Below are positions 3,244 to 18,132 of a stretch of 64,000 nucleotides of DNA, one piece after another. Origin of the DNA: a virus; the IMG/VR virus record IMGVR_UViG_3300032213_001988, positions 32,001 through 96,000 of that record, one strand, 5' to 3'. The position numbers and the translations under genes were made by a program. Under the pieces are notes generated by a model. It was given only the letters and a program-made list of their open reading frames with translations. It had not been told where the DNA came from and made no database searches. Position 1 is the stretch's first letter. Each line of letters opens with the position of its first letter.

Positions 3244-3771
3244 CTATAGGTTGTTAAACGTGCCTAAGTATAGGTTGCCGTTAACGTCAGGCCATAGGTA
3301 CTGATAATGAGGAGGGCGATAGCCAGGGTCTTCTTCCCAGCCAAACTGGCTATACCAGCTGTAATCTTTGCGTAAAAGTGACACACGGTGCGTGGACGCA
3401 ACCTGTTCAAACTTATCTCTGTCTGCCATCCAGCCAGGAAAGACTAGCTCTGGAGAGATTAACTTGCGCTCAACTGCAATATCAAATGTGCCGTAGATCT
3501 TGCCAAGCATTGTAGACTTGTAGCCGCGCTTACGCCACTCGAAGTACGTCGCTGCAAGATAAGAGACTAGCACGGCTTCGTGTCCGCGCCACATGTGCGC
3601 AACAGGATGATTAACCCAACCTTTAGGGTCACGAAACTCGCCCGCAGGATTAAGCTTAGTTAAGGCTAGTAAACACTGCCAGCCTTCTAAGGTTTGCTTG
3701 TGAAGGCGCTTGTTATCAAGCTCAGCAGCAATGCGCTCGAACGAATCGGTCTGTTGCATAAACGTTTGCAT
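3244..3771 (-). CDS. Pyrimidine-dimer DNA glycosylase-like protein (MSMEG_6728 / endonuclease V-like)
   Basis: MQTF...LDNKRLHKQTLE...GWVNHP...MWRGHE...EWRKRGY. Confidence 0.75.
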   Translation of the reverse strand: MQTFMQQTDSFERIAAELDNKRLHKQTLEGWQCLLALTKLNPAGEFRDPKGWVNHPVAHMWRGHEAVLVSYLAATYFEWRKRGYKSTMLGKIYGTFDIAVERKLISPELVFPGWMADRDKFEQVASTHRVSLLRKDYSWYSQFGWEEDPGYRPPHYQYLWPDVNGNLYLGTFNNL

Positions 3772-3800: not shown

Positions 3801-3812
3801 AATTATATCAGG
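3801..3812 (-). promoter_or_regulatory. Extended -10 promoter CCTGATATAATT
   Basis: TGnTATAAT; same core as the early-region copies. Confidence 0.75.
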
Positions 3813-4086
3813 TGCCCTTGCTATATGGGTCAGTATTGAGATCGTCTAGGTTAAGAGGATCAACGTCATACTGAACCTCATCTGCCTCCATGTTTGCGTA
3901 TATTCCTACTATAGTAATATCTCCACATGAGGCACAGACGTTAATCTCGCCTGTCTTTAGCTCATCTGGAACTGTCACCGCAGTTAGCTTAGATATTAAA
4001 CTTCCATCGTCTCCAACAGATTCTGGCTCCCACTGTGTGTTCTCTTCAAGATAACACTTCTCGCACTGCGGATAGGCTTTTGTCAT
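3808..4086 (-). CDS. Small Cys4 (Zn-binding) hypothetical protein
   Basis: CEKC...CASC; ATGA coupling to upstream gene. Confidence 0.7.
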   Translation of the reverse strand: MTKAYPQCEKCYLEENTQWEPESVGDDGSLISKLTAVTVPDELKTGEINVCASCGDITIVGIYANMEADEVQYDVDPLNLDDLNTDPYSKGT

Positions 4087-5318
4087 TCGTAGCGCTTCTT
4101 TGCTGCGTGCCTTGAGAAGCCCTTATCAGTGTCTATAAGCCATTCACGATCTCCGATTAGTTCACCCTGGGGTCCGTTAGGTTCCCCACTCAGAGAGGCA
4201 ACTACGGCATCTCCTAGCCACTTAGCAGCGTGCACTGGAACTGCCTTTCCCCACGTAGCTTGCATCGCAGAGTAGTCCTTAGCACCTTCAATGTCCCAAT
4301 CGTCTGGCAGACCTTGCATGCGTGCACACTCGCGGTGAGTAAGAAGTCGCGGTTCAGTTGGGTGAACAACATGATCTAACGCAGAGCCAGTAAGCACGTT
4401 ACACCAGTGATCTTCCTTCCAGCGATACGGCTGAGAAAACCCAAGTTTATACTGCTTGCGTACAACACGCGCAGATATGTCGACCCAACGTTGAGGAAAC
4501 TTGCCATCATTCATTTCAACGGCCTTCTTTATGGCTCCGCCAAGATCTCCGTTCCCTGGCCACCCGTCATTTCCAATGATGTCAAACACCTCTTGAATTC
4601 TCTGTGAGTGAATCGTGTCCTTGCCAATGTGCCCGTTTACCTTGCCGTTTTTTGAGCGCAAGGACTTAGTAAACTTAGAGTGTTTTTCAATGTAAGGCTG
4701 CGCCTCCCACTGTTGTGGAAGATGCGCAAGATCACCTATGATGTCCATGATCTTAGGGAATTCCTTAGGCTCTGTCACCTGCGCACCAAACTTTAATCCT
4801 TTGCGTACCGCAACCCAGAAGTAACGTGGTCGATACGAGAATCCACCAAGTTGAAGATTGTTTTGTTTTACGTGATATAAGTCGTATTTCTTACCAGAGA
4901 TCTCTTCTACCATAAGACGATACTTGTTCATCGTCTCTCTCCCTTGTGTATAGGCTTGCTGCACGCACTCAAACACAATAATCTTTGGCGCAACTCGCCC
5001 TGCGTATCTCATAAAGGCGCGCGTATGCTCGTGCGCTGCAGAATCAGGACCACGATTTGCAGGACCAGACCAGACTGACCAACCAGAGCATGGAGGACAG
5101 CCAACGACAGCATCAACCTTGTGAACTGGCCACTCGTTTGCGTCATCTGAGAAAAATGTGCTCCACTTATTGCCTAGATGATGACGATTAGCTTCTGCAA
5201 CTGCGTTGCCAAAGTTAAGTGTGCCCGTGCGATTTGTCATTTCCATTCCAGCCTGCACAAGGCCTAAGCTCATGAAACCTGCAAGCCCGTTGCAGTCAGT
5301 AAATGTTGGTGTAGTCAT
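4083..5318 (-). CDS. Divergent C5-cytosine DNA methyltransferase homolog (SAM motifs degenerate)
   Basis: Motif IV GCPPCSGWS, VI FECV, VIII YRPRYF, IX RLLTHRECARMQGLPD, X WGKAVP; motif I reads DCNGLAGFMSLG. Confidence 0.8.
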   Translation of the reverse strand: MTTPTFTDCNGLAGFMSLGLVQAGMEMTNRTGTLNFGNAVAEANRHHLGNKWSTFFSDDANEWPVHKVDAVVGCPPCSGWSVWSGPANRGPDSAAHEHTRAFMRYAGRVAPKIIVFECVQQAYTQGRETMNKYRLMVEEISGKKYDLYHVKQNNLQLGGFSYRPRYFWVAVRKGLKFGAQVTEPKEFPKIMDIIGDLAHLPQQWEAQPYIEKHSKFTKSLRSKNGKVNGHIGKDTIHSQRIQEVFDIIGNDGWPGNGDLGGAIKKAVEMNDGKFPQRWVDISARVVRKQYKLGFSQPYRWKEDHWCNVLTGSALDHVVHPTEPRLLTHRECARMQGLPDDWDIEGAKDYSAMQATWGKAVPVHAAKWLGDAVVASLSGEPNGPQGELIGDREWLIDTDKGFSRHAAKKRYE

Positions 5319-5368: not shown

Positions 5369-5692
5369 TTAAGGCTGCTCTAGGGGAGCAGTTTTATTGC
5401 TTTTTTCAGCCTCAAGTTGTCCTACCTCGTATCCACACCCAGCGTAGCCTGCAATATCAATCCAAGTATCAGGCTGAAAACCAGACTTTGACCCATAGCG
5501 AGCAAGTTTAAGCCCTACCATCATCATTGCAACGTCTTCGCGTGTAAAGTTGTAGTTAGTGATAACACTCCACACCTTTGCGATACGTTCAAAGTTCTCT
5601 TCTGGTCCTCCGTATTGAACGTCACGCTCGCCGGCAATAATTCTTGCCGCCTCGCGTAACGCCTCAACACGTGGTTTATTTTCCTGGCTCAT
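5369..5692 (-). CDS. DUF6378-like all-alpha nucleotide-modification-associated protein
   Basis: EAARIIAGERDVQYGGPEENFERIA..W...DVAMMM..LKLAR...DTWIDIAGYA. Confidence 0.75.
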   Translation of the reverse strand: MSQENKPRVEALREAARIIAGERDVQYGGPEENFERIAKVWSVITNYNFTREDVAMMMVGLKLARYGSKSGFQPDTWIDIAGYAGCGYEVGQLEAEKSNKTAPLEQP

Positions 5693-5694
5693 CG

Positions 5695-5904
5695 CTAAAC
5701 TCTCACCTTGACTTTACAGTCTGCTGAAAACGTTAAGTCCATTGGTCCTTCTTCTCCACAGAAAATAAACATTTCTATGTCAATTTTTTCTTTTATAGAA
5801 TCGTAATCTTCTACTTTAAAATAAGAACATATTCTTTCTATAAGCTTTCCTTCAATTTGTTCTTTTGTTTTTCCAATAATCTGAAAAGTTATGGTTGCTC
5901 TCAT
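5695..5904 (-). CDS. AT-rich hypothetical protein, 69 aa
   Basis: Coupled to neighbours; about 22% GC over 5761-5880 (hand count). Confidence 0.55.
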   Translation of the reverse strand: MRATITFQIIGKTKEQIEGKLIERICSYFKVEDYDSIKEKIDIEMFIFCGEEGPMDLTFSADCKVKVRV

Positions 5905-6323
5905 TATTTGATCCTTCTTTCTAACTTGTATGGTGAATAGTGAACTCCGTCAAGAAAAGGCTTCTTGTCGTCGTTTGAGCGAATAATAATATCTCCGCTT
6001 CTTATTGCAACTACTATACCTCTCCGTCCGTTGTGCATTGCGCCCGTTGAGTCGCTGAAGGCGTCGTTCATTACGCGCACCTCTTCACCGACTGTTAAGA
6101 AACCCGCCTGAGCAGGTACCCAAACCTCGTCCTTTGGTGGATCAACAAGCGAGTGGTTAAGCGCAAGTTTGCTAAATACCTCAACGGCAGACTTTGCATG
6201 CTCTGGTTTTAGCTCAAGCGCCTTCCATGTGTCTAGTAGCTCAAGAACAGCCTTGCCAACAACAACACGAACTTTTGCTGAGACAAACTGTTCTCTTGCC
6301 CATTCCTCATTTATATCTGGCAT
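5904..6323 (-). CDS. Hypothetical protein with SH3/KOW-like C-terminus
   Basis: GGAG RBS; VGEEVRV...NGRRGIVVAIRSGDIII. Confidence 0.7.
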   Translation of the reverse strand: MPDINEEWAREQFVSAKVRVVVGKAVLELLDTWKALELKPEHAKSAVEVFSKLALNHSLVDPPKDEVWVPAQAGFLTVGEEVRVMNDAFSDSTGAMHNGRRGIVVAIRSGDIIIRSNDDKKPFLDGVHYSPYKLERRIK

Positions 6324-6324
6324 T

Positions 6325-6795
6325 TTACCCCTCCACTACTGGTCTGCACTTTGCGCAGACGTCTGGCGTCTTGCCAACGCCAACATCGTCAATTGCCCTT
6401 GAGCACATCGCGCACTTGACGCCGATGTCCTTTACCTTATATCCATTTAACTGACGCTGCTTATTCTTTTCCATCTTTTCAAGATAGAACTTGTTAAGCT
6501 GCTCGTCTGTTCCTCCCGCCGCAACGATGATGTTTGCAACAAAGTGTAGAACGTCAACAGCTTCCTTAACAATCTCTTCGCGGTCTGCGTAAGGCTTATC
6601 GTGCTGCCAAGGCTTCCACGAAATTGCCTGCCGCATCTCTGCAAGCTCATCGTCGATGGCTAACATGTTCCAGCGCATGTACTCAACAAGACGGCGGATA
6701 TTCGCGTCCTTGTCGCCTTCCATCTCTTCGTAGTTAATGTAGTAGACGTCCTTCTGCAGGTCGCGTGTCTTCTTTAGCCAGCTATCAAACAGCAT
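6325..6795 (-). CDS. All-alpha dimeric dUTPase/dCTPase (T4 gp56-like) with C-terminal Cys4
   Basis: DELAEM...WKPW...KEAVDVLHF...Y.EKMEKNKQRQ..GY; CAMC...CAKC. Confidence 0.8.
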   Translation of the reverse strand: MLFDSWLKKTRDLQKDVYYINYEEMEGDKDANIRRLVEYMRWNMLAIDDELAEMRQAISWKPWQHDKPYADREEIVKEAVDVLHFVANIIVAAGGTDEQLNKFYLEKMEKNKQRQLNGYKVKDIGVKCAMCSRAIDDVGVGKTPDVCAKCRPVVEG

Positions 6796-7804
6796 ATACT
6801 GCTCCTTTTATGTTAAGTGTTCTTTCTAAGTTGTGCAGTGCTTCTTCCTTGCCCGGTGAGTTAGCTAAGTAGGCGCTACTCTGAGTTCTTGACAGATCGT
6901 ATCTTTCCTGTGGTGTCATATCCTCAATCGTTGCTGCAAGGTACCTCCAAGAATTGCCAATTGCAGACGTGCTTGTCCAAAGTGACGCGATTGGCGTTGC
7001 AGTGTTCATTGCTTGGATATAACGATACGTCCACCAGGTTCTATCCTTGTGCGGGGATATAAGTGCACCAATAGACTGCCTGATCTGTTCTTCAACCTGT
7101 GAGTCAGTCCAGCCCTTGTTCCACTTCATTGGCATGGCCGGATAGTTTAAGGTTGAAAGCTTTTTCTTTGTCCACGGTGAATCATGACTATCTGCTACCC
7201 ATCGCGCAGTTCTATCTGTTACACCCTGCGTGTTTTTCTCGACGATATACGCATCAAGGTTTACTCCGTGCAGTGATGCAGCAGCTCCTTCAGGCAGTTG
7301 GTCACTGGCGCTTTGTTTTGTGTCCCAAGGAAGAACAGGGCACAATGTAGTTGGCCATGTTTCATTTAGTAGAAACTCAACAACGGCAAGCATCTCATTT
7401 GATCTTGCAACCGCAAGACGGTATCCCTTGCGGTTCTTGTAGAACTCCTTTGTAAGGTTTCCGTTCCAGGTGCTGATTGATGTCAAACTCGATCTAATCT
7501 GCACAGGATTAGGCGCGTCAATAAAAAACCTAAGCTTATCTGTACCCTTAAGCAGATCAATAAGGTGTAGTGCTCCATACGCGTAGTTTGCGCTTAAACT
7601 TGTTAACGGAGAGATGCCAACAAGAACTGAGTCGTAGTAGTCCAGGTGTTGAGCTTCCCACGTAATATCTGGCTCAAGCATCACGACTTGATGCCCTGCG
7701 TCAGTAAGAACCTTGTCAACAAGACCTGCAAAAGATAGCGAGCGCTTGTTTGCACTGGTTGATACCTGTGGCGCAGACATACCTGTAATAAGAACGCGAC
7801 TCAT
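6785..7804 (-). CDS. GT-B glycosyltransferase, T4 beta-glucosyltransferase-like (paralog 2)
   Basis: VLITG..LTDAGHQV..YDSVLVGISPL..FFID; VEEQIRQSIGALISP..WWTYRYIQAM. Confidence 0.6.
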   Translation of the reverse strand: MSRVLITGMSAPQVSTSANKRSLSFAGLVDKVLTDAGHQVVMLEPDITWEAQHLDYYDSVLVGISPLTSLSANYAYGALHLIDLLKGTDKLRFFIDAPNPVQIRSSLTSISTWNGNLTKEFYKNRKGYRLAVARSNEMLAVVEFLLNETWPTTLCPVLPWDTKQSASDQLPEGAAASLHGVNLDAYIVEKNTQGVTDRTARWVADSHDSPWTKKKLSTLNYPAMPMKWNKGWTDSQVEEQIRQSIGALISPHKDRTWWTYRYIQAMNTATPIASLWTSTSAIGNSWRYLAATIEDMTPQERYDLSRTQSSAYLANSPGKEEALHNLERTLNIKGAVYAV

Positions 7805-9006
7805 GCATCGGTACCGTCTGCGTTTAACTTAACGCCCTTGTCCTCGCGTAGTGCGCGCGCAATGATGCGTTCACAGTGATCCTTAAACTGGTCATACGTT
7901 CCGATGTAAGGGCGTAACGCGTCAGCCTGTGCCTTTGCTGCTGCAACTAGCTCTGTATCTGACATCTTTTCAACGTCTGCGATGGTTAACTTATAGGCAT
8001 CACCTAACGGATCACCTTCGCCTTTATCGGTAACGAGAATAGATCCAATGTGCGCTGCGTAGAGGAAGCGCGAACGCCACCAACCTGAACCTGCGTGTGG
8101 ATACGGTGGAGAAAGAATTCCCCAACGAGTGTTGTAATACTCAAGTACTTCCTGCTCTGTATCAAGACGCTTTCCACCAAGCTTACGAATAAGTTTACGA
8201 CTACCAATAATTTCAACAGCCCAGTCTGGTTTCTTACGACCTAGCCATTCATCGTGTGGCATTAGTGCGCCAAGCACCCACGCACGATTCTTTTCTGTCG
8301 ATGGAGTTACAGCTGCGAGCGTATCGTTAACCACTACACTAGGGTCCAGTGCCTCAATGGGACCGACTTCTTTTGGCATACGTTTACGAACACCGGTGCG
8401 GTCACCCCACGCATACATCGGACAAACTGGAACCATACCAGCTTCCCAGCGGCGGTCAATCATGTCTGTTGCTGCCTGCACAAGACGTTTTTCGTAAGGC
8501 TGAACGTTTTCGTCTGTGTCCATCATGTAGTAACGTTCAATGTAGCATTTCTTCGCCGCAACTGGATCTAATACACGAACACGTTCTAACGCTGCCTCGA
8601 TATCTGCGCGACTAAAGTAGGTTGCGCCTTCTTCACCGCGATGCTCTGTTCCAACAAGCAGATGCTTATAGAGCATTGAAGGCTTTTTCATCATAGCGCG
8701 AGCGCCATTGAACACAGTATTAAACTGCCAATCATCAAAAAATCCAACCGCAGGCAAGCCTGAGGATAAAGTATAGAGAGCGCCCATAGCGCCTTGTCGT
8801 CCATTTAGCGAGTTCAACGGAGCAAGGTTAACCCAAGCAACATCGTATGAGGACAAATCCTCGCCAGGCGTTACCTTACGCCAGTCAACTTCATGACCTA
8901 AATCTGTTAATGCCTTTACAATTAACGCAGGCACATCAATCTTTTGTATTGTGCGTCGTTCTGTGTTAATCTGTAACGCAGTAAAACCAGTCATCAAGAT
9001 TTTCAT
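7801..9006 (-). CDS. GT-B glycosyltransferase, T4 beta-glucosyltransferase-like (paralog 1)
   Basis: MKILMTG..LTDLGHEV..YDVAWVNLAPLN..FFDDW; WGILSPPY..WWRSRF..LVTD; AAGGAG RBS. Confidence 0.65.
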   Translation of the reverse strand: MKILMTGFTALQINTERRTIQKIDVPALIVKALTDLGHEVDWRKVTPGEDLSSYDVAWVNLAPLNSLNGRQGAMGALYTLSSGLPAVGFFDDWQFNTVFNGARAMMKKPSMLYKHLLVGTEHRGEEGATYFSRADIEAALERVRVLDPVAAKKCYIERYYMMDTDENVQPYEKRLVQAATDMIDRRWEAGMVPVCPMYAWGDRTGVRKRMPKEVGPIEALDPSVVVNDTLAAVTPSTEKNRAWVLGALMPHDEWLGRKKPDWAVEIIGSRKLIRKLGGKRLDTEQEVLEYYNTRWGILSPPYPHAGSGWWRSRFLYAAHIGSILVTDKGEGDPLGDAYKLTIADVEKMSDTELVAAAKAQADALRPYIGTYDQFKDHCERIIARALREDKGVKLNADGTDA

Positions 9007-15555: not shown

Positions 15556-16026
15556 TTAATCCTCTAGTATCGTTACATCAATACTGCAATTTTTAAGATA
15601 ATCAATTGTAGCTTCTGGCTTTCGGTGAATTGCCTTACTGCCAACACGCATAACAACTCTTGCAACTCCTGAGTTAGACACAAGCTTTGCGCATTGTAGG
15701 CATGCTACGTCTGTTATGTATATTGTTCCACCTTCAATACGTGATCTATCAACGTATAAAAGAGCATTTGCTTCTGCATGAATTGACGGACACGTGTCAT
15801 ACATGTTATCTAGTGGTACAAGACCTTGCGCACGCGGGCACCACTCAATGCAGTCGCCCTCAACGTCAAGAGTTGCAGCAGGCCCATTATACCCGGTAGA
15901 CGCAACGCGCTGGTTGGAAGAAACTACAACCGCGCCAATCTGTGCACGAGAACAACGTGAACGTTTAGCAATGGTGTCTGCTACGTCCATCCATACCTTG
16001 TCCCATGAAGGTCTATCTAAGCTCAA
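15556..16026 (-). CDS. dCMP deaminase
   Basis: SWD..WM..A...RSRC..GAVV..TGYNG..HAEANAL..ACLQC. Confidence 0.9.
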   Translation of the reverse strand: MSLDRPSWDKVWMDVADTIAKRSRCSRAQIGAVVVSSNQRVASTGYNGPAATLDVEGDCIEWCPRAQGLVPLDNMYDTCPSIHAEANALLYVDRSRIEGGTIYITDVACLQCAKLVSNSGVARVVMRVGSKAIHRKPEATIDYLKNCSIDVTILED

Positions 16027-16256
16027 AACGGAACATCTCCCTTATCATCGTCATCATCAATGTGACCGTACTCGTCCATTCCTTCGTGAACTCCTGCAGC
16101 AAGAATATGCGCAACAATAGTTACAGCCTGTCGACGTGTAAAACCAGCACGCGTAAGTTCGCGATACATCTCATGCATCTGTAGTGCAGCCTCGCGCAAA
16201 GGACTTATATTAAAGTCCTCCTCGTTAAGACCGCCTTCTTTCTTATTGTCCGTCAT
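16023..16256 (-). CDS. Small acidic hypothetical protein
   Basis: Translationally coupled on both sides. Confidence 0.65.
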   Translation of the reverse strand: MTDNKKEGGLNEEDFNISPLREAALQMHEMYRELTRAGFTRRQAVTIVAHILAAGVHEGMDEYGHIDDDDDKGDVPF

Positions 16257-17134
16257 TATTTACTTTTCTTGTCTGCTTGCTTTTCATCCTTCTGTAAGTT
16301 ATTTAGAACAGCGCGTTTCATCGAGTCAGTATACCACTTCTCAGCGTCGTTAAGACGCGCATACGTTGGCTCACTCACAGTTGCCTGCATTGCAAGCATG
16401 GCAGATGACTTAACCTCGTTCCAGGTGCGTCCAGTGATTGCAGGAATTGTCGGGCTATGCAGTGCGTGTGCAAGCTTATCTGCTGAGGCGTAGTGCTGCT
16501 CATAAATGTGAAGTGATCCTACGTGGTGATTGTATGTTCCAGGCTCGATACCTAAAACAGATGCCATAGCAATTTGCACGCGAGTAAACTGGAAGAAGTC
16601 ATACGCTGCACCTAGCCATACATCGTTTGAGCGCATATACACACTCATGTTAAGCTTGTTATTACGAATACGGAACTGATGCAGGATTGTGCAAGGGTAG
16701 TCACGCTTTCGTTCCTGTAGGTCAAGCTGCGGGTTCCAAATTGTAACTACTGCCTGTCGTGTATCAGGGTCTTGCATAAGTCTGTCAATAATCATGTCGT
16801 ATTGCCCTGCAGTTCGAGGACCGTATGCTCCGTGAAATAAACCGTTGTCCTCCGCGTAGTTTGCAAACTGCGGGCCAACGGAGATAACTAAGTCTGGAAT
16901 AGTTACACCTGCAAGAAGTTGACACGCCTCAACCGCACCGATGCCAGGAACTGTTCCTCGACCAACCTCAAGAGGTAAGGTGTTAAACACGTTGTCAATG
17001 CGAATAATCGCATCCTCGATCTCAAGGGTCTTCATACCACGTGGAGCAACCTCCTTGCCGTGCTCAAGTACATGCTTAACAAGATCAACGTATCCGTTGA
17101 CTCCGTCTTCTATATTTATTATCGCAGTATCCAT
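16256..17134 (-). CDS. Thymidylate synthase homolog, dCMP-specific type (dCMP hydroxymethylase/methylase)
   Basis: YPCT (Cys148), MRSNDVWLGAAYD (Asp179 at the TS Asn position), GSLHIY. Confidence 0.8.
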   Translation of the reverse strand: MDTAIINIEDGVNGYVDLVKHVLEHGKEVAPRGMKTLEIEDAIIRIDNVFNTLPLEVGRGTVPGIGAVEACQLLAGVTIPDLVISVGPQFANYAEDNGLFHGAYGPRTAGQYDMIIDRLMQDPDTRQAVVTIWNPQLDLQERKRDYPCTILHQFRIRNNKLNMSVYMRSNDVWLGAAYDFFQFTRVQIAMASVLGIEPGTYNHHVGSLHIYEQHYASADKLAHALHSPTIPAITGRTWNEVKSSAMLAMQATVSEPTYARLNDAEKWYTDSMKRAVLNNLQKDEKQADKKSK

Positions 17135-18132
17135 GCGTCATCCTTTTCTTGTAGTGTAGCAACTCGTAGAATTGCATCTCCGTATTCTTCCTTGCTTTTG
17201 TTAAAGAACCTACGCACATACTGCGGGTGAGGCAGAACAGAGTAGTAGTCCTCGTGTACGGGAATTGACGCCAACGTCTTCTCCGCAAGACGCCCAAGAA
17301 CAACTATTCTTGGGAAACCTAACGTTCTCCATAACTTTAAGAAGGAGTCCTTCACACCTTCATCGTTTATATTGACGATGCCCACGGCACGCCAAAGCTC
17401 CTCGGACATTGCAGTAAGTAGATACTCCGCAGAGTTACCATCAACAGGCATAAACGGAAGTTTTGTTTCCTCGCCGTATTTCTTTACGATGTTACGCGTA
17501 TCTCCAATAAGCAGCACCTTCGGGCTTGGGTTTCCAATATAGTATGGAAAAGGCTCGAGCTTGGCTGCCATTAACTCAACCTGCTCCGCGCTATCAACTA
17601 TATACTTTGCAACCTCAGGTATAAGATCAATGCTGTCTGCTGGAGGCTCAATCTTTGCAATGATGTTTGATGAGCCACAGGCAATTTCATATTGTTTAAG
17701 AATATCACTGAGGTCATCTACGTCTACAAAGTCGTCGCCGCGAGAGGCAAGACGCTGCTGAATAACATCAAGAGGCTGATATAGCCAAAATTGAGCAACG
17801 CCACGAGACATAAGGAAGAGTTCAACCCAACGCCAACCGGCCTTGCCTAATAGACCATATCCATCCTTGTTTGTACTTGGGCGAAACTTAGGAGCGTATG
17901 TTACTTCGCCCCAGTGCCAACGATCTGATAATCCAATTTTATTAAACCAATTTATTGGTTCAATTGACATGACGTAGTCGTTTAACACCCAACGGCGTGT
18001 TTGTTCTTCAGGACGCCCCTTGTGAAAAAGACGCGTTGGAGTAGTTGCAAAGCGCTCGTTAAGCTCGTGCTCAACTGCAGCGATAAGAGAGCTCTTACCC
18101 GATGCGTCGGTACCTTCGATTACTATAAACAT
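17119..18132 (-). CDS. dNMP kinase fused to uracil-DNA-glycosylase-superfamily-like domain
   Basis: EGTDASGKSS P-loop, DRWHWGE; then GNPSPKVLLIGD..LPF..IVVLGR.A..HPQY. Confidence 0.7.
   Translation of the reverse strand: MFIVIEGTDASGKSSLIAAVEHELNERFATTPTRLFHKGRPEEQTRRWVLNDYVMSIEPINWFNKIGLSDRWHWGEVTYAPKFRPSTNKDGYGLLGKAGWRWVELFLMSRGVAQFWLYQPLDVIQQRLASRGDDFVDVDDLSDILKQYEIACGSSNIIAKIEPPADSIDLIPEVAKYIVDSAEQVELMAAKLEPFPYYIGNPSPKVLLIGDTRNIVKKYGEETKLPFMPVDGNSAEYLLTAMSEELWRAVGIVNINDEGVKDSFLKLWRTLGFPRIVVLGRLAEKTLASIPVHEDYYSVLPHPQYVRRFFNKSKEEYGDAILRVATLQEKDDAWILR

What the first reader, a model, noticed from the sequence alone, without database searches (positions are those of the whole stretch)
4083..5318. 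C5-methyltransferase homolog with intact catalytic motifs but dismantled SAM site: possible new cytosine hypermodification enzyme
Seen: motif IV PC, motif VI Glu (ECV instead of ENV), motif VIII RxR and motif IX are kept. Motif I FxGxG reads NGLAGF, no acidic motif II residue is evident (RTGTLNFG), and motif X Asn is Lys (GKAV). Known: without SAM, C5-MTases still form the Cys-C6 adduct and can add or remove hydroxymethyl groups or couple thiols to hmC in vitro. Inference: next to a dCTPase, two BGT-like enzymes and a dCMP-type TS, this protein may use a non-SAM donor or tailor hmC rather than methylate.
Basis: partly seen in the sequence, partly recalled or inferred. Interest (0 to 1): 0.85.

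Follow-up and report, generated by a model that had tools for sequence, protein, structure and literature searches.

The report
Rebuilt-pocket cytosine-C5 enzyme of hmC actinophages
A phage gene has the fold and cytosine-attacking residues of a DNA cytosine methylase but a conserved, rebuilt donor pocket, and it always travels with the genes that make hydroxymethyl-cytosine DNA, so it probably performs untested, non-standard chemistry at cytosine C5.

Summary
Window 4083-5318, minus strand, encodes a 411-aa C5-methyltransferase-fold protein. It keeps Cys77, Glu117, Arg163/Arg165 and motif IX. Motif I reads DCNGLAGF, Gly32 replaces the motif II Glu, and Lys358 replaces the motif X Asn.

"Dismantled" is the wrong word: the pocket is rebuilt and conserved. 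In 102 family members motif X is Lys 97, Arg 3 and never Asn. The N-terminal pocket is under purifying selection (dN/dS 0.13).

The family looks virus-only. All 25 near-complete genomes carrying it have one thymidylate-synthase homolog. All 31 such homologs aligned, and three cultured-phage ones read by eye, have the cytosine-type Asp. 22 of 25 have a dUTPase_2/MazG enzyme. Tailoring genes vary between glycosyltransferases and a kinase/ADDT set, so this gene belongs to the constant core.

No CmoA or TET match turned up in the genomes searched. My best reading (0.35) is SAM-independent hydroxymethyl-level chemistry at C5 on DNA. The rivals are a carboxy-SAM-type transferase, an ordinary methylase, and a host-DNA-directed deaminase. 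The chemistry is untested.

The scan met this family before on other DNA (e1-5848160) and reached a similar reading.

The parts
4083..5318 (-). 411-aa C5-methyltransferase-fold protein (P0001) with a rebuilt donor pocket
   Evidence: ORF; PF00145 E 9e-23; AF2 pLDDT 96.4; Foldseek top hits DNMT1/MET1, 3G7U, M.HaeIII
5274..5297 (-). Motif I equivalent DCNGLAGF: Asn10 at the Phe position, Leu12 at the first Gly position
   Evidence: Invariant in 78 close relatives. Family-wide, the Phe position is Q52/N14/H13 and the first Gly position is F48/L41
5205..5237 (-). Motif II equivalent TNRTGTLNFGN: Gly32 where most of the family and canonical enzymes have Glu; Arg30 is basic in 88 of 102 members
5076..5102 (-). 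Motif IV GCPPCSGWS with the catalytic Cys77
   Evidence: invariant in A1
4962..4973 (-). Motif VI FECV: Glu117 invariant; the Asn of ENV is replaced by Cys (Ser in most of the family)
4815..4832 (-). Motif VIII RPRYFW (Arg163, Arg165)
   Evidence: invariant
4296..4340 (-). Motif IX THRECARMQGLPDDW
4233..4253 (-). Motif X WGKAVPV: Lys358 (4245-4247) in place of the canonical Asn
   Evidence: K in 79/79, 78/78; K97/R3/S1/Q1 of 102
3808..4086 (-). 92-aa Zn-ribbon protein (CxxC...CxxC) with an acidic tail; its ATG overlaps the MT-like stop codon (ATGA)
   Evidence: present in 34 of 43 loci of the clade
5369..5692 (-). DUF6378 protein directly upstream
   Evidence: PF19905 E 3e-26; 38 of 43 loci
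5904..6323 (-). Conserved 139-aa protein with no family match
   Evidence: 42 of 43 loci
6325..6795 (-). dUTPase_2/MazG-like all-alpha NTP pyrophosphatase (candidate dCTPase/dUTPase)
   Evidence: PF08761 E 2e-12; PHROG dUTPase; 22 of 25 complete genomes of the family
6785..7804 (-). GT-B fold glycosyltransferase (339 aa)
   Evidence: AF2 pLDDT 85; Foldseek hits SenB and T4 BGT, TM about 0.55
7801..9006 (-). Divergent paralog of the GT (401 aa)
   Evidence: same blastp cluster; 20% identity in A4
15556..16026 (-). dCMP deaminase
   Evidence: PF00383 E 4e-18; PHROG
16256..17134 (-). Thymidylate-synthase homolog of dCMP-hydroxymethylase type: RSNDVWLGAAYD, Asp at the ThyA N177 position, D169 kept
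   Evidence: best PDB hit is MilA CMP hydroxymethylase; diagnostic residues from PMC13326640
17119..18132 (-). dNMP (thymidylate) kinase-like protein with an extra C-terminal domain
   Evidence: PHROG thymidylate kinase E 1e-12; weak UDG hit E 0.046

Best explanation
The protein is a catalytically competent, phage-only member of the cytosine-C5 methyltransferase superfamily. Its methyl-donor pocket has been rebuilt rather than lost. It forms the invariant core of an actinophage hydroxymethyl-cytosine DNA system, together with a dCMP-hydroxymethylase-type TS homolog and a dUTPase_2/MazG enzyme.

Most likely mechanism (inferred, not shown):
1. It flips a cytosine-type base out of DNA.
2. Cys77 adds to C6, with Glu117 and Arg163/Arg165 holding the ring, as in all C5-MTases.
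3. No methyl is taken from SAM. Instead the enzyme does hydroxymethyl-level chemistry at C5.
4. Lys358 sits where the transferred group normally lies. It acts as acid/base or as an anchor for an anionic group.

Two forms of step 3 are possible. One installs a CH2-O unit on cytosines that escaped nucleotide-level replacement, a DNA-level counterpart of the dCMP hydroxymethylase. The other exchanges the hydroxyl of 5hmC through the exocyclic-methylene intermediate.

Shown: fold, residues, conservation, virus-only distribution, obligate co-occurrence. Inferred: substrate, donor and product.
For: Fold and residues:
- The fold and all covalent-catalysis residues are kept and invariant.

Donor pocket:
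- It is altered family-wide. Motif X is Lys 97, Arg 3 and Asn 0 of 102. Phe to Gln/Asn/His. First Gly of FxGxG to Phe/Leu. A basic residue two positions before the motif II site in 88 of 102. New invariant Gly37, Asn44 and near-invariant Trp63 replace motif III.
- It is under purifying selection: dN/dS 0.13 for residues 1-60 against 0.08-0.09 for the core. Its residues are invariant in 78 relatives.

Distribution:
- One hit in 185,579 prokaryote species genomes, on a 17.5-kb MAG contig. Atlas clusters are 100% viral.

Co-occurrence:
- TS homolog in 25 of 25 near-complete genomes. All 31 aligned are Asp-type with D169 kept, and the three cultured-phage ones read separately are also Asp-type.
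- dUTPase_2 in 22 of 25.
- In cultured phages the closest TS relatives are in the same phages that carry this gene.

Context:
- The same module occurs in Gordonia, Micrococcus and freshwater actinophages.
- Tailoring genes vary while this gene stays.
- No CmoA in 26 genomes. No TET match in them either, but the TET control rang nowhere at the cut-off used for the 25 genomes, so that absence is weak.
- One protein fuses the domain to the helical domain of an HMUDK (5-hmdU DNA kinase).
Against: - No biochemical or nucleoside data exist for any member. I found no paper on the family.
- Engineered K/R mutants at this position still methylate with SAM (PMC13288465), so Lys does not exclude SAM.
- 62 of 102 members keep the motif II Glu, which suggests a ribose-containing ligand in much of the family.
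- T4 needs no such enzyme for hmC DNA.
- It is not proven that C is fully replaced. The pyrophosphatase specificity is unknown, and hm-dCMP could instead be deaminated towards hmU.
- I had no model coordinates, so pocket geometry and occlusion could not be examined.
Confidence: 0.35

Rival explanations
1. Carboxymethyl-type (or other anionic SAM-analogue) transferase. Like CmoX or engineered M.MpeI N374K, it would use carboxy-SAM supplied by the host and put a carboxymethyl group on C5 of unmodified cytosines. Lys358 would pair with the carboxylate.
For: - A cationic residue at exactly this position is the experimentally established determinant for Cx-SAM use: Arg350 in natural CmoX (PDB 8YF3), and K/R in engineered enzymes.
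- Lys or Arg occupies this position in 100 of 102 members.
- The motif II Glu is kept in 62 of 102.
- There are recurrent fusions or adjacency to a class I SAM-MTase domain that could methylate a carboxyl or hydroxyl.
Against: - No CmoA in the own genome or in 25 complete family genomes. By contrast, 4257 CmoA genes were found on the contigs of the 5615 CmoX.
- The adenine-binding Phe and Asp seen in CmoX are absent.
- The fused class I domain resembles UbiG/mycolic-acid MTases, not CmoA.
- C5 would already be occupied if C is replaced by hmC.
- The C. glutamicum control did not reach the CmoA cut-off.
Confidence: 0.15
2. An ordinary SAM-dependent m5C methyltransferase with a divergent cofactor site. 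It would methylate specific sites in phage DNA (or host DNA) for anti-restriction or regulation.
For: - Passes the Pfam threshold.
- All catalytic motifs are intact.
- K/R mutants of real MTases retain SAM activity.
- Much of the family keeps the motif II Glu and a Gly-rich loop.
- The target-recognition region is the most variable part (25% identity), as in sequence-specific MTases.
Against: - Never Asn at motif X in 102 members.
- Phe and the first Gly of FxGxG are replaced family-wide. Motif III is absent. This clade also lacks the Glu.
- Below the NCBIfam dcm cut-off.
- Found once in 185,579 cellular species genomes searched, and not in an R-M context, unlike the canonical relative.
- Strictly tied to a pathway that occupies C5.
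Confidence: 0.15
3. A cofactor-free enzyme aimed at unmodified (host) cytosine. It would use the MTase mechanism without SAM to protonate C5 (Lys358) and deaminate C to U, or to form trapping adducts. Host DNA would be damaged or marked, while hmC phage DNA would not fit.
For: - C5-MTases without SAM are known to deaminate cytosine (established knowledge).
- A bulky Phe/Leu at the first Gly and loss of the adenine contacts fit exclusion of SAM.
- Being part of the constant core fits a self/non-self function, analogous to the T4 dC-specific nucleases.
- A T4 endoV-like glycosylase follows the gene in 40 of 43 loci of this clade, and the kinase carries a weak UDG-like domain.
Against: - Purely inferential.
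- The Pyr_excise neighbour is not conserved in the wider family.
- Most members keep the motif II Glu.
- There is no precedent for such an enzyme.
Confidence: 0.15
4. A non-catalytic or non-DNA role: a base-flipping reader or scaffold for the modification machinery, or an RNA-directed enzyme like DNMT2.
For: - Fusions to wHTH, class I MTase and HMUDK helical domains could mean it serves as a targeting module.
Against: - Cys77, Glu117, Arg163 and Arg165 are invariant across roughly 30%-identical members, which argues for catalysis.
- The window has no tRNA genes.
Confidence: 0.1

Closest known systems
Canonical DNA cytosine-C5 methyltransferases (M.HaeIII 1DCT, M.HhaI, prophage CP-933R 3G7U, DNMT1/MET1; Pfam PF00145)
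   Same: Same fold (Foldseek E 1e-15 to 1e-20; TM to 3G7U 0.75 normalised by target length). Same catalytic PC Cys, motif VI Glu, RxR and motif IX. DNMT1-like large target-recognition region.
   Different: Motif I Phe to Asn/Gln and first Gly to Leu/Phe. No motif III Asp. Motif II Glu to Gly in this clade. ENV to ECV/ESV. Motif X Asn to Lys in the whole family. Below the NCBIfam dcm cut-off. Found once in cellular genomes. Not in R-M contexts.
CmoX, natural DNA cytosine C5-carboxymethyltransferase of Synechococcus phage S-B43 (PDB 8YF3), and engineered M.MpeI N374K / M.CviPI Y205K/R
   Same: C5-MTase fold with a cationic residue at the motif X Asn position next to the transferred group. Phage-encoded. 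Serves as a handle for hypermodification.
   Different: CmoX keeps canonical adenine/ribose contacts (Phe25, Phe48, Glu47, Asp69) and usually travels with CmoA. This family lacks those contacts in part, has no CmoA in 26 genomes, has Lys rather than Arg, and travels with a dCMP-hydroxymethylase pathway instead. The profile match to 8YF3 is no better than to other MTases.
T4-type hmC pathway (gp42 dCMP hydroxymethylase, gp56 dCTPase, gp1 kinase, Cd, alpha/beta-glucosyltransferases)
   Same: The neighbourhood reproduces it: a TS homolog with RSND...D (identical to T4's RSND...GFRND in Micrococcus phage Kurnik), an all-alpha NTP pyrophosphatase, a dNMP kinase, dCMP deaminase, and a GT-B transferase structurally near T4 BGT.
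   Different: To my knowledge T4 has no C5-MTase-fold component. Here that component is as constant as the hydroxymethylase itself.
Phage MT + TET/5mYOX + glycosyltransferase systems (PMC8256090)
   Same: A phage C5-MTase-family enzyme upstream of glycosylation of a C5 hydroxymethyl group.
   Different: Those MTases are SAM-dependent and need a TET dioxygenase. No Tet_JBP match in the own genome or in 25 family genomes, although the control for that search was uninformative.

Membership tests
DNA (cytosine-5)-methyltransferase (PF00145 / TIGR00675 dcm) | C5-MTase fold | tested here: met
   AF2 pLDDT 96.4; Foldseek hits to DNMT1, 3G7U and HaeIII at E 1e-15 to 1e-20
DNA (cytosine-5)-methyltransferase (PF00145 / TIGR00675 dcm) | Catalytic motif IV Pro-Cys, motif VI Glu, motif VIII Arg-x-Arg | tested here: met
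   Cys77, Glu117, Arg163 and Arg165 are invariant in 79 sequences; coordinates
DNA (cytosine-5)-methyltransferase (PF00145 / TIGR00675 dcm) | Motif I FxGxG (SAM loop) | tested here: not met
   Reads N-G-L-A-G. The HMM alignment to HaeIII puts Gln/Asn at the Phe and Phe/Leu at the first Gly
DNA (cytosine-5)-methyltransferase (PF00145 / TIGR00675 dcm) | Motif II acidic residue binding the SAM ribose | tested here: not met
   Gly32 in this protein and in all 78 close relatives. Glu is kept in 62 of 102 of the wider family
DNA (cytosine-5)-methyltransferase (PF00145 / TIGR00675 dcm) | Motif X Gly-Asn | tested here: not met
   Gly-Lys; no Asn in 102 members
DNA (cytosine-5)-methyltransferase (PF00145 / TIGR00675 dcm) | Curated score thresholds | tested here: inconclusive
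   Pfam 81.6 bits against 22 (passes, but only profile positions 56-321 match). NCBIfam dcm 48.9 bits against 100.65 (fails)
DNA (cytosine-5)-methyltransferase (PF00145 / TIGR00675 dcm) | Binds SAM and makes 5-methylcytosine | not testable with these tools
   Needs a binding assay and nucleoside LC-MS
CmoX-type DNA cytosine C5-carboxymethyltransferase | Cationic residue at the HhaI Asn304 position | tested here: met
   Lys358 (CmoX has Arg350); 3 of 102 family members have Arg
CmoX-type DNA cytosine C5-carboxymethyltransferase | SPPC motif as used to define the family in PMC12783734 | tested here: not met
   CPPC here; NPPC in most of the family
CmoX-type DNA cytosine C5-carboxymethyltransferase | [quoted passage not shown] | tested here: not met
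   TIGR00740: 0 hits in the own 131.5-kb genome and 0 of 25 complete family genomes
CmoX-type DNA cytosine C5-carboxymethyltransferase | Canonical adenosine contacts (Phe, Glu, Asp) seen in 8YF3 | tested here: not met
   Asn10, Gly32 and no motif III Asp
T4-like hmC DNA pathway (context, not the protein itself) | TS homolog with Asp at ThyA N177 and D169 retained (hydroxymethylase type, not 5hoC type) | tested here: met
   RSNDVWLGAAYD. Best PDB hit is MilA. 31 of 31 aligned homologs in family genomes, plus DSL-LC01, Sixama and Kurnik read separately
T4-like hmC DNA pathway (context, not the protein itself) | hmC actually present in virion DNA | not testable with these tools
   Only assembled contigs of public runs were available, no raw signal

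The most novel reading that the evidence does not exclude
The family is a new class of DNA-modifying enzyme: a SAM-independent cytosine-C5 enzyme on a methyltransferase scaffold. It would install or exchange a hydroxymethyl-level group directly on DNA (a DNA-level analogue of dCMP hydroxymethylase/TS chemistry, or the natural version of the in-vitro hmC-coupling side reaction). It would be an obligatory core part of hmC genomes in actinophages.
Probability: 0.3. Interest if true: 0.9.

Novelty: new variant of a known kind. Interest (0 to 1): 0.7.

Why it matters
C5-methyltransferases are among the best-understood DNA enzymes. Their SAM-free side reactions (hydroxymethyl addition or removal, thiol coupling, deamination) and engineered carboxymethyl transfer are so far mostly laboratory findings.

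Here is a large natural family: at least 136 clusters at 50% identity, abundant in freshwater and soil viromes, and present in culturable Gordonia and Micrococcus phages. Evolution has fixed a cationic residue next to C5 and rebuilt the donor pocket. The family is locked to a hydroxymethyl-cytosine pathway.

Finding its product would do one of two things. It could add a new DNA base modification or enzyme chemistry, useful for epigenomic labelling tools such as DM-Seq. Or it could reveal how these phages tell their own DNA from host DNA. It also shows that actinophage hmC systems have a core component that T4 lacks.

Tried and rejected
- Complex prediction of the MT-like protein with the ATGA-coupled 92-aa Zn-ribbon neighbour gave no verdict (score 0.00). 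It is no evidence either way.
- The search for related loci with the full family alignment A1 failed because no stretch was conserved enough. A sub-alignment A2 worked.
- Public sequencing runs: 20 holders, all kept as assembled contigs, so no raw reads or nanopore signal to look for modified bases.
- Megablast of the region against cultured phages found no match.
- The Iyer et al. 2013 paper on DNA-modification systems could not be fetched.
- The literature searches found nothing on this family or on hmC in actinophages.
- Phage-encoded CmoA, TET/JBP and (in the own genome) HMUDK were searched and not found. The TET control was silent, so that absence is weak.
- The class I MTase domain fused to some members was tested as a CmoA candidate and rejected: its best matches are UbiG and mycolic-acid MTases.
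- Sequence search of the two GT-like neighbours against the PDB gave nothing useful. A fold search was needed.
- The idea that the MT-like replaces the HMUDK kinase as the activating step was rejected. L064 carries both.
- Model coordinates are not exposed, so pocket geometry or ligand docking could not be examined.
- 4-mer palindrome statistics of the genome (GTAC 0.69, CATG 0.76, GATC 0.80) are too mild to say anything about modification.
Full report
**What is there**

Window 4083-5318 carries one ORF on the minus strand (ATG at 5318, 411 aa, P0001). A GGGAGA ribosome-binding site lies upstream. The window is part of a 131.5-kb virus genome with direct terminal repeats. Its closest cultured relative is Actinomycetia phage DSL-LC01, whose homolog of this protein is 69% identical.

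Pfam places the protein in PF00145 at E 9e-23, but only profile positions 56-321 match. NCBIfam dcm scores 48.9 bits against a cut-off of 100.65. An AlphaFold2 model built on a 79-sequence alignment is very confident (pLDDT 96.4). Foldseek matches it to DNMT1/MET1/ZMET2, the prophage MTase 3G7U and M.HaeIII. The fold is not in doubt.

**The motifs**

- GCPPCSGWS, with Cys77
- FECV, with Glu117
- RPRYFW, with Arg163 and Arg165
- motif IX
- WGKAVPV, with Lys358

A profile of the family aligned to M.HaeIII shows four substitutions. The motif I Phe corresponds to Gln/Asn (Asn10 here). The first Gly of FxGxG corresponds to Phe/Leu (Leu12 here). The motif II Glu corresponds to a Glu in most of the family but to Gly32 here. 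The motif X Asn corresponds to Lys.

A canonical MTase picked up by the same tblastn search gives a control. It comes from Oscillospiraceae phage NatCom_11393 and lies next to a second MTase and a restriction endonuclease. It has DLFAGVGG, NEYD, GDIT and GNAVPP. The deviations are therefore real.

**Rebuilt, not dismantled**

The protein belongs to a large family. In a library clustered at 50% identity, 136 representatives score E < 1e-30 and 260 score E < 1e-10.

In 102 aligned members:
- Motif X is Lys 97, Arg 3, Ser 1, Gln 1 and never Asn.
- The Phe position is Gln 52, Asn 14, His 13.
- The first Gly is Phe 48, Leu 41.
- A Lys or Arg sits two residues before the motif II position in 88.
- The motif II Glu is kept in 62.

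The family also has its own invariant residues where motif III should be: Gly37 and Asn44 invariant, Trp63 near-invariant.

In 78 close relatives from freshwater viromes the N-terminal 60 residues have dN/dS 0.13, against 0.08-0.09 for the catalytic core. Nearly every pocket residue is invariant: D8 C9 N10 G11 L12 A13 F15 G19 R30 T31 G32 T33 L34 N35 F36 G37 N38 N44 R45, and K358 in 78 of 78. A decaying site would not look like this. The loss of the motif II Glu is specific to this sub-clade, which includes the Gordonia phages.

**Distribution and company**

The family appears to be viral only.
- A pattern scan of one genome from each of 185,579 prokaryote species found a single hit, on a 17.5-kb MAG contig.
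- ESM Atlas neighbour clusters are 100% viral.

In 81 loci from IMG/VR, I clustered the ORFs within 10 kb. The commonest neighbours fall into two groups:
- A replication/recombination module: PDDEXK 56, AAA_24 53, SNF2 50, DUF669 49, PolA 34.
- Modification genes: a dUTPase_2/MazG enzyme 52, usually directly upstream. A GT-B-like protein 47. A STELLO/RGP-like GT 29. A sugar epimerase/dehydratase 20. A GT1 20. A nucleotidyltransferase 18. An ADDT amino-acid:DNA transferase 9.

Whole-record searches show one TS homolog in 42 of 48 records, and in 25 of 25 records that are at least 90% complete. All 31 TS homologs I aligned have Asp at the E. coli ThyA N177 position and keep D169. Thirty came from those records and one from Logan locus L004. 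By the diagnostic residues in PMC13326640 they are cytosine-specific and not the 5-hydroxycytosine type.

The window's own TS homolog is best matched by the CMP hydroxymethylase MilA. Read separately, DSL-LC01 and Sixama are also Asp-type. Micrococcus phage Kurnik even has the T4 gp42 string RSND...GFRND.

dUTPase_2 is present in 22 of 25 complete genomes. Among cultured phages, the closest relatives of this TS are found in exactly the phages that carry the MT-like gene: 13 Gordonia records and DSL-LC01.

**Constant core against variable tailoring**

Of 33 loci with full flanks, 25 have at least one glycosyltransferase. Of the other 8, 4 have an ADDT homolog.

One complete 88-kb genome (L064) carries, directly upstream of dUTPase_2 and the MT-like gene, this run of genes:
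- myo-inositol-1-phosphate synthase
- a HAD phosphatase
- ADDT
- a dual-specificity phosphatase
- an FkbM-like MTase
- an HMUDK-type DNA kinase

A Logan contig (L004) has the module with no GT in it, and there the MT-like is fused to a class I SAM-MTase domain. The tailoring set changes, but TS-Asp, dUTPase_2 and the MT-like stay. This places the MT-like in the core of the system rather than among the optional decorations. It weakens the narrower reading that it tailors glucosyl-hmC.

**What the Lys means**

A cationic residue at this exact position is the known determinant for using carboxy-SAM. Natural CmoX has Arg350 contacting the carboxymethyl group (PDB 8YF3). Engineered M.MpeI N374K and M.CviPI Y205K/R gain carboxymethyl transfer.

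Three facts temper it:
- The engineered K/R enzymes still methylate with SAM.
- CmoX keeps canonical adenosine contacts that this family lacks.
- No CmoA is encoded in the own genome or in 25 complete family genomes. By contrast, 4257 CmoA genes were found on the contigs of the 5615 CmoX.

No TET/JBP match and, in the own genome, no HMUDK was found.

**Mechanism**

What is shown:
- A catalytically intact cytosine-C6-attacking enzyme.
- A conserved non-canonical pocket with one or two extra positive charges.
- It is obligately coupled to a dCMP-hydroxymethylase pathway.

What is inferred is the reaction. I commit, at about 0.35, to SAM-independent hydroxymethyl-level chemistry at C5 on DNA, with Lys358 as acid/base or anion anchor. 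That means one of two things. It may add a CH2-O unit to cytosines that escaped nucleotide-level replacement, which is TS-like chemistry on an MTase scaffold. Or it may exchange the hydroxyl of 5hmC through the exocyclic methylene.

Rivals at roughly 0.15 each are:
- a Cx-SAM-type transferase
- a plain SAM methylase with an odd pocket
- a cofactor-free enzyme that deaminates or traps unmodified host cytosine

A non-catalytic role gets about 0.1.

A real uncertainty is that complete replacement of C by hmC is not proven. The pyrophosphatase specificity is unknown, and hm-dCMP could in principle be deaminated by the adjacent dCMP deaminase.

**Context checks**

The 339-aa neighbour (6785-7804) folds as GT-B (pLDDT 85). 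SenB and T4 beta-glucosyltransferase are its best structural matches (TM about 0.55, 14-15% identity). "BGT-like" is acceptable at fold level. The 401-aa neighbour is a distant paralog.

**Novelty**

I found no paper describing this family. The scan itself met it before on other DNA. Note e1-5848160 reached "rebuilt-pocket cytosine-C5 enzyme of hmC actinophages", which my independent tests agree with and extend. The additions are the virus-only distribution, the 25 of 25 co-occurrence, the core-against-tailoring argument, the CmoX/Lys connection, and the cultured test phages.

I class it as a new variant of a known kind, with a fair chance (about 0.3) that the chemistry is new.

Noticed in passing
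window 3808-4086 (-): A 92-aa Zn-ribbon protein (CxxC...CxxC) with a strongly acidic tail. Its ATG overlaps the MT-like stop codon (ATGA). It is conserved directly downstream in 34 of 43 loci of this clade, is absent from DSL-LC01, and has no family match.
   Followed up: partly
L064:4940-11200 (IMG/VR 88-kb complete genome): An unusual hypermodification cluster next to a family member: myo-inositol-1-phosphate synthase, HAD phosphatase, ADDT amino-acid:DNA transferase, dual-specificity phosphatase, FkbM-like MTase, HMUDK-type DNA kinase, dUTPase_2, MT-like. It hints at an undescribed, possibly inositol-containing, base modification in a phage with a cytosine-type TS homolog.
   Followed up: partly
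P0187, P0199, P0219, P0271-P0278; L004:9905-12412; L001:11431-11943: Recurrent fusion of the MT-like domain to a C-terminal class I SAM-MTase domain (Methyltransf_23/11/12; at least 10 proteins). DSL-LC01 has a separate small class I MTase gene directly upstream. The domain resembles UbiG/mycolic-acid MTases, not CmoA.
   Followed up: partly
P0248 (919 aa, Logan contig) and P0249: Single proteins fuse the MT-like domain to the helical domain of an HMUDK (5-hmdU DNA kinase) (E 5e-40) or to an FkbM methyltransferase domain.
   Followed up: no
window 5904-6323 (-): A 139-aa protein with no Pfam, PHROG or NCBIfam match. It is conserved between the pyrophosphatase and the MT-like gene in 42 of 43 loci and in DSL-LC01.
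   Followed up: no
window 3244-3771 (-): A T4 endonuclease V-like pyrimidine-dimer DNA glycosylase, conserved just downstream of the MT-like gene in 40 of 43 loci of this clade but not in the wider family.
   Followed up: no
window 17119-18132 (-): A thymidylate-kinase-like N-terminal half (PHROG E 1e-12) joined to a C-terminal domain with only a weak UDG-superfamily hit (E 0.046).
   Followed up: no
window 5369-5692 (-): DUF6378 protein. PHROGs label its families 'phosphofructokinase', which looks like an annotation artefact. It recurs in the same module in a distant family member (L198).
   Followed up: no
loci L005-L084, downstream of the MT-like gene: A DUF932 protein follows the MT-like gene in 28 of 81 loci. 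In L064 a DUF6011 protein lies between the two.
   Followed up: no
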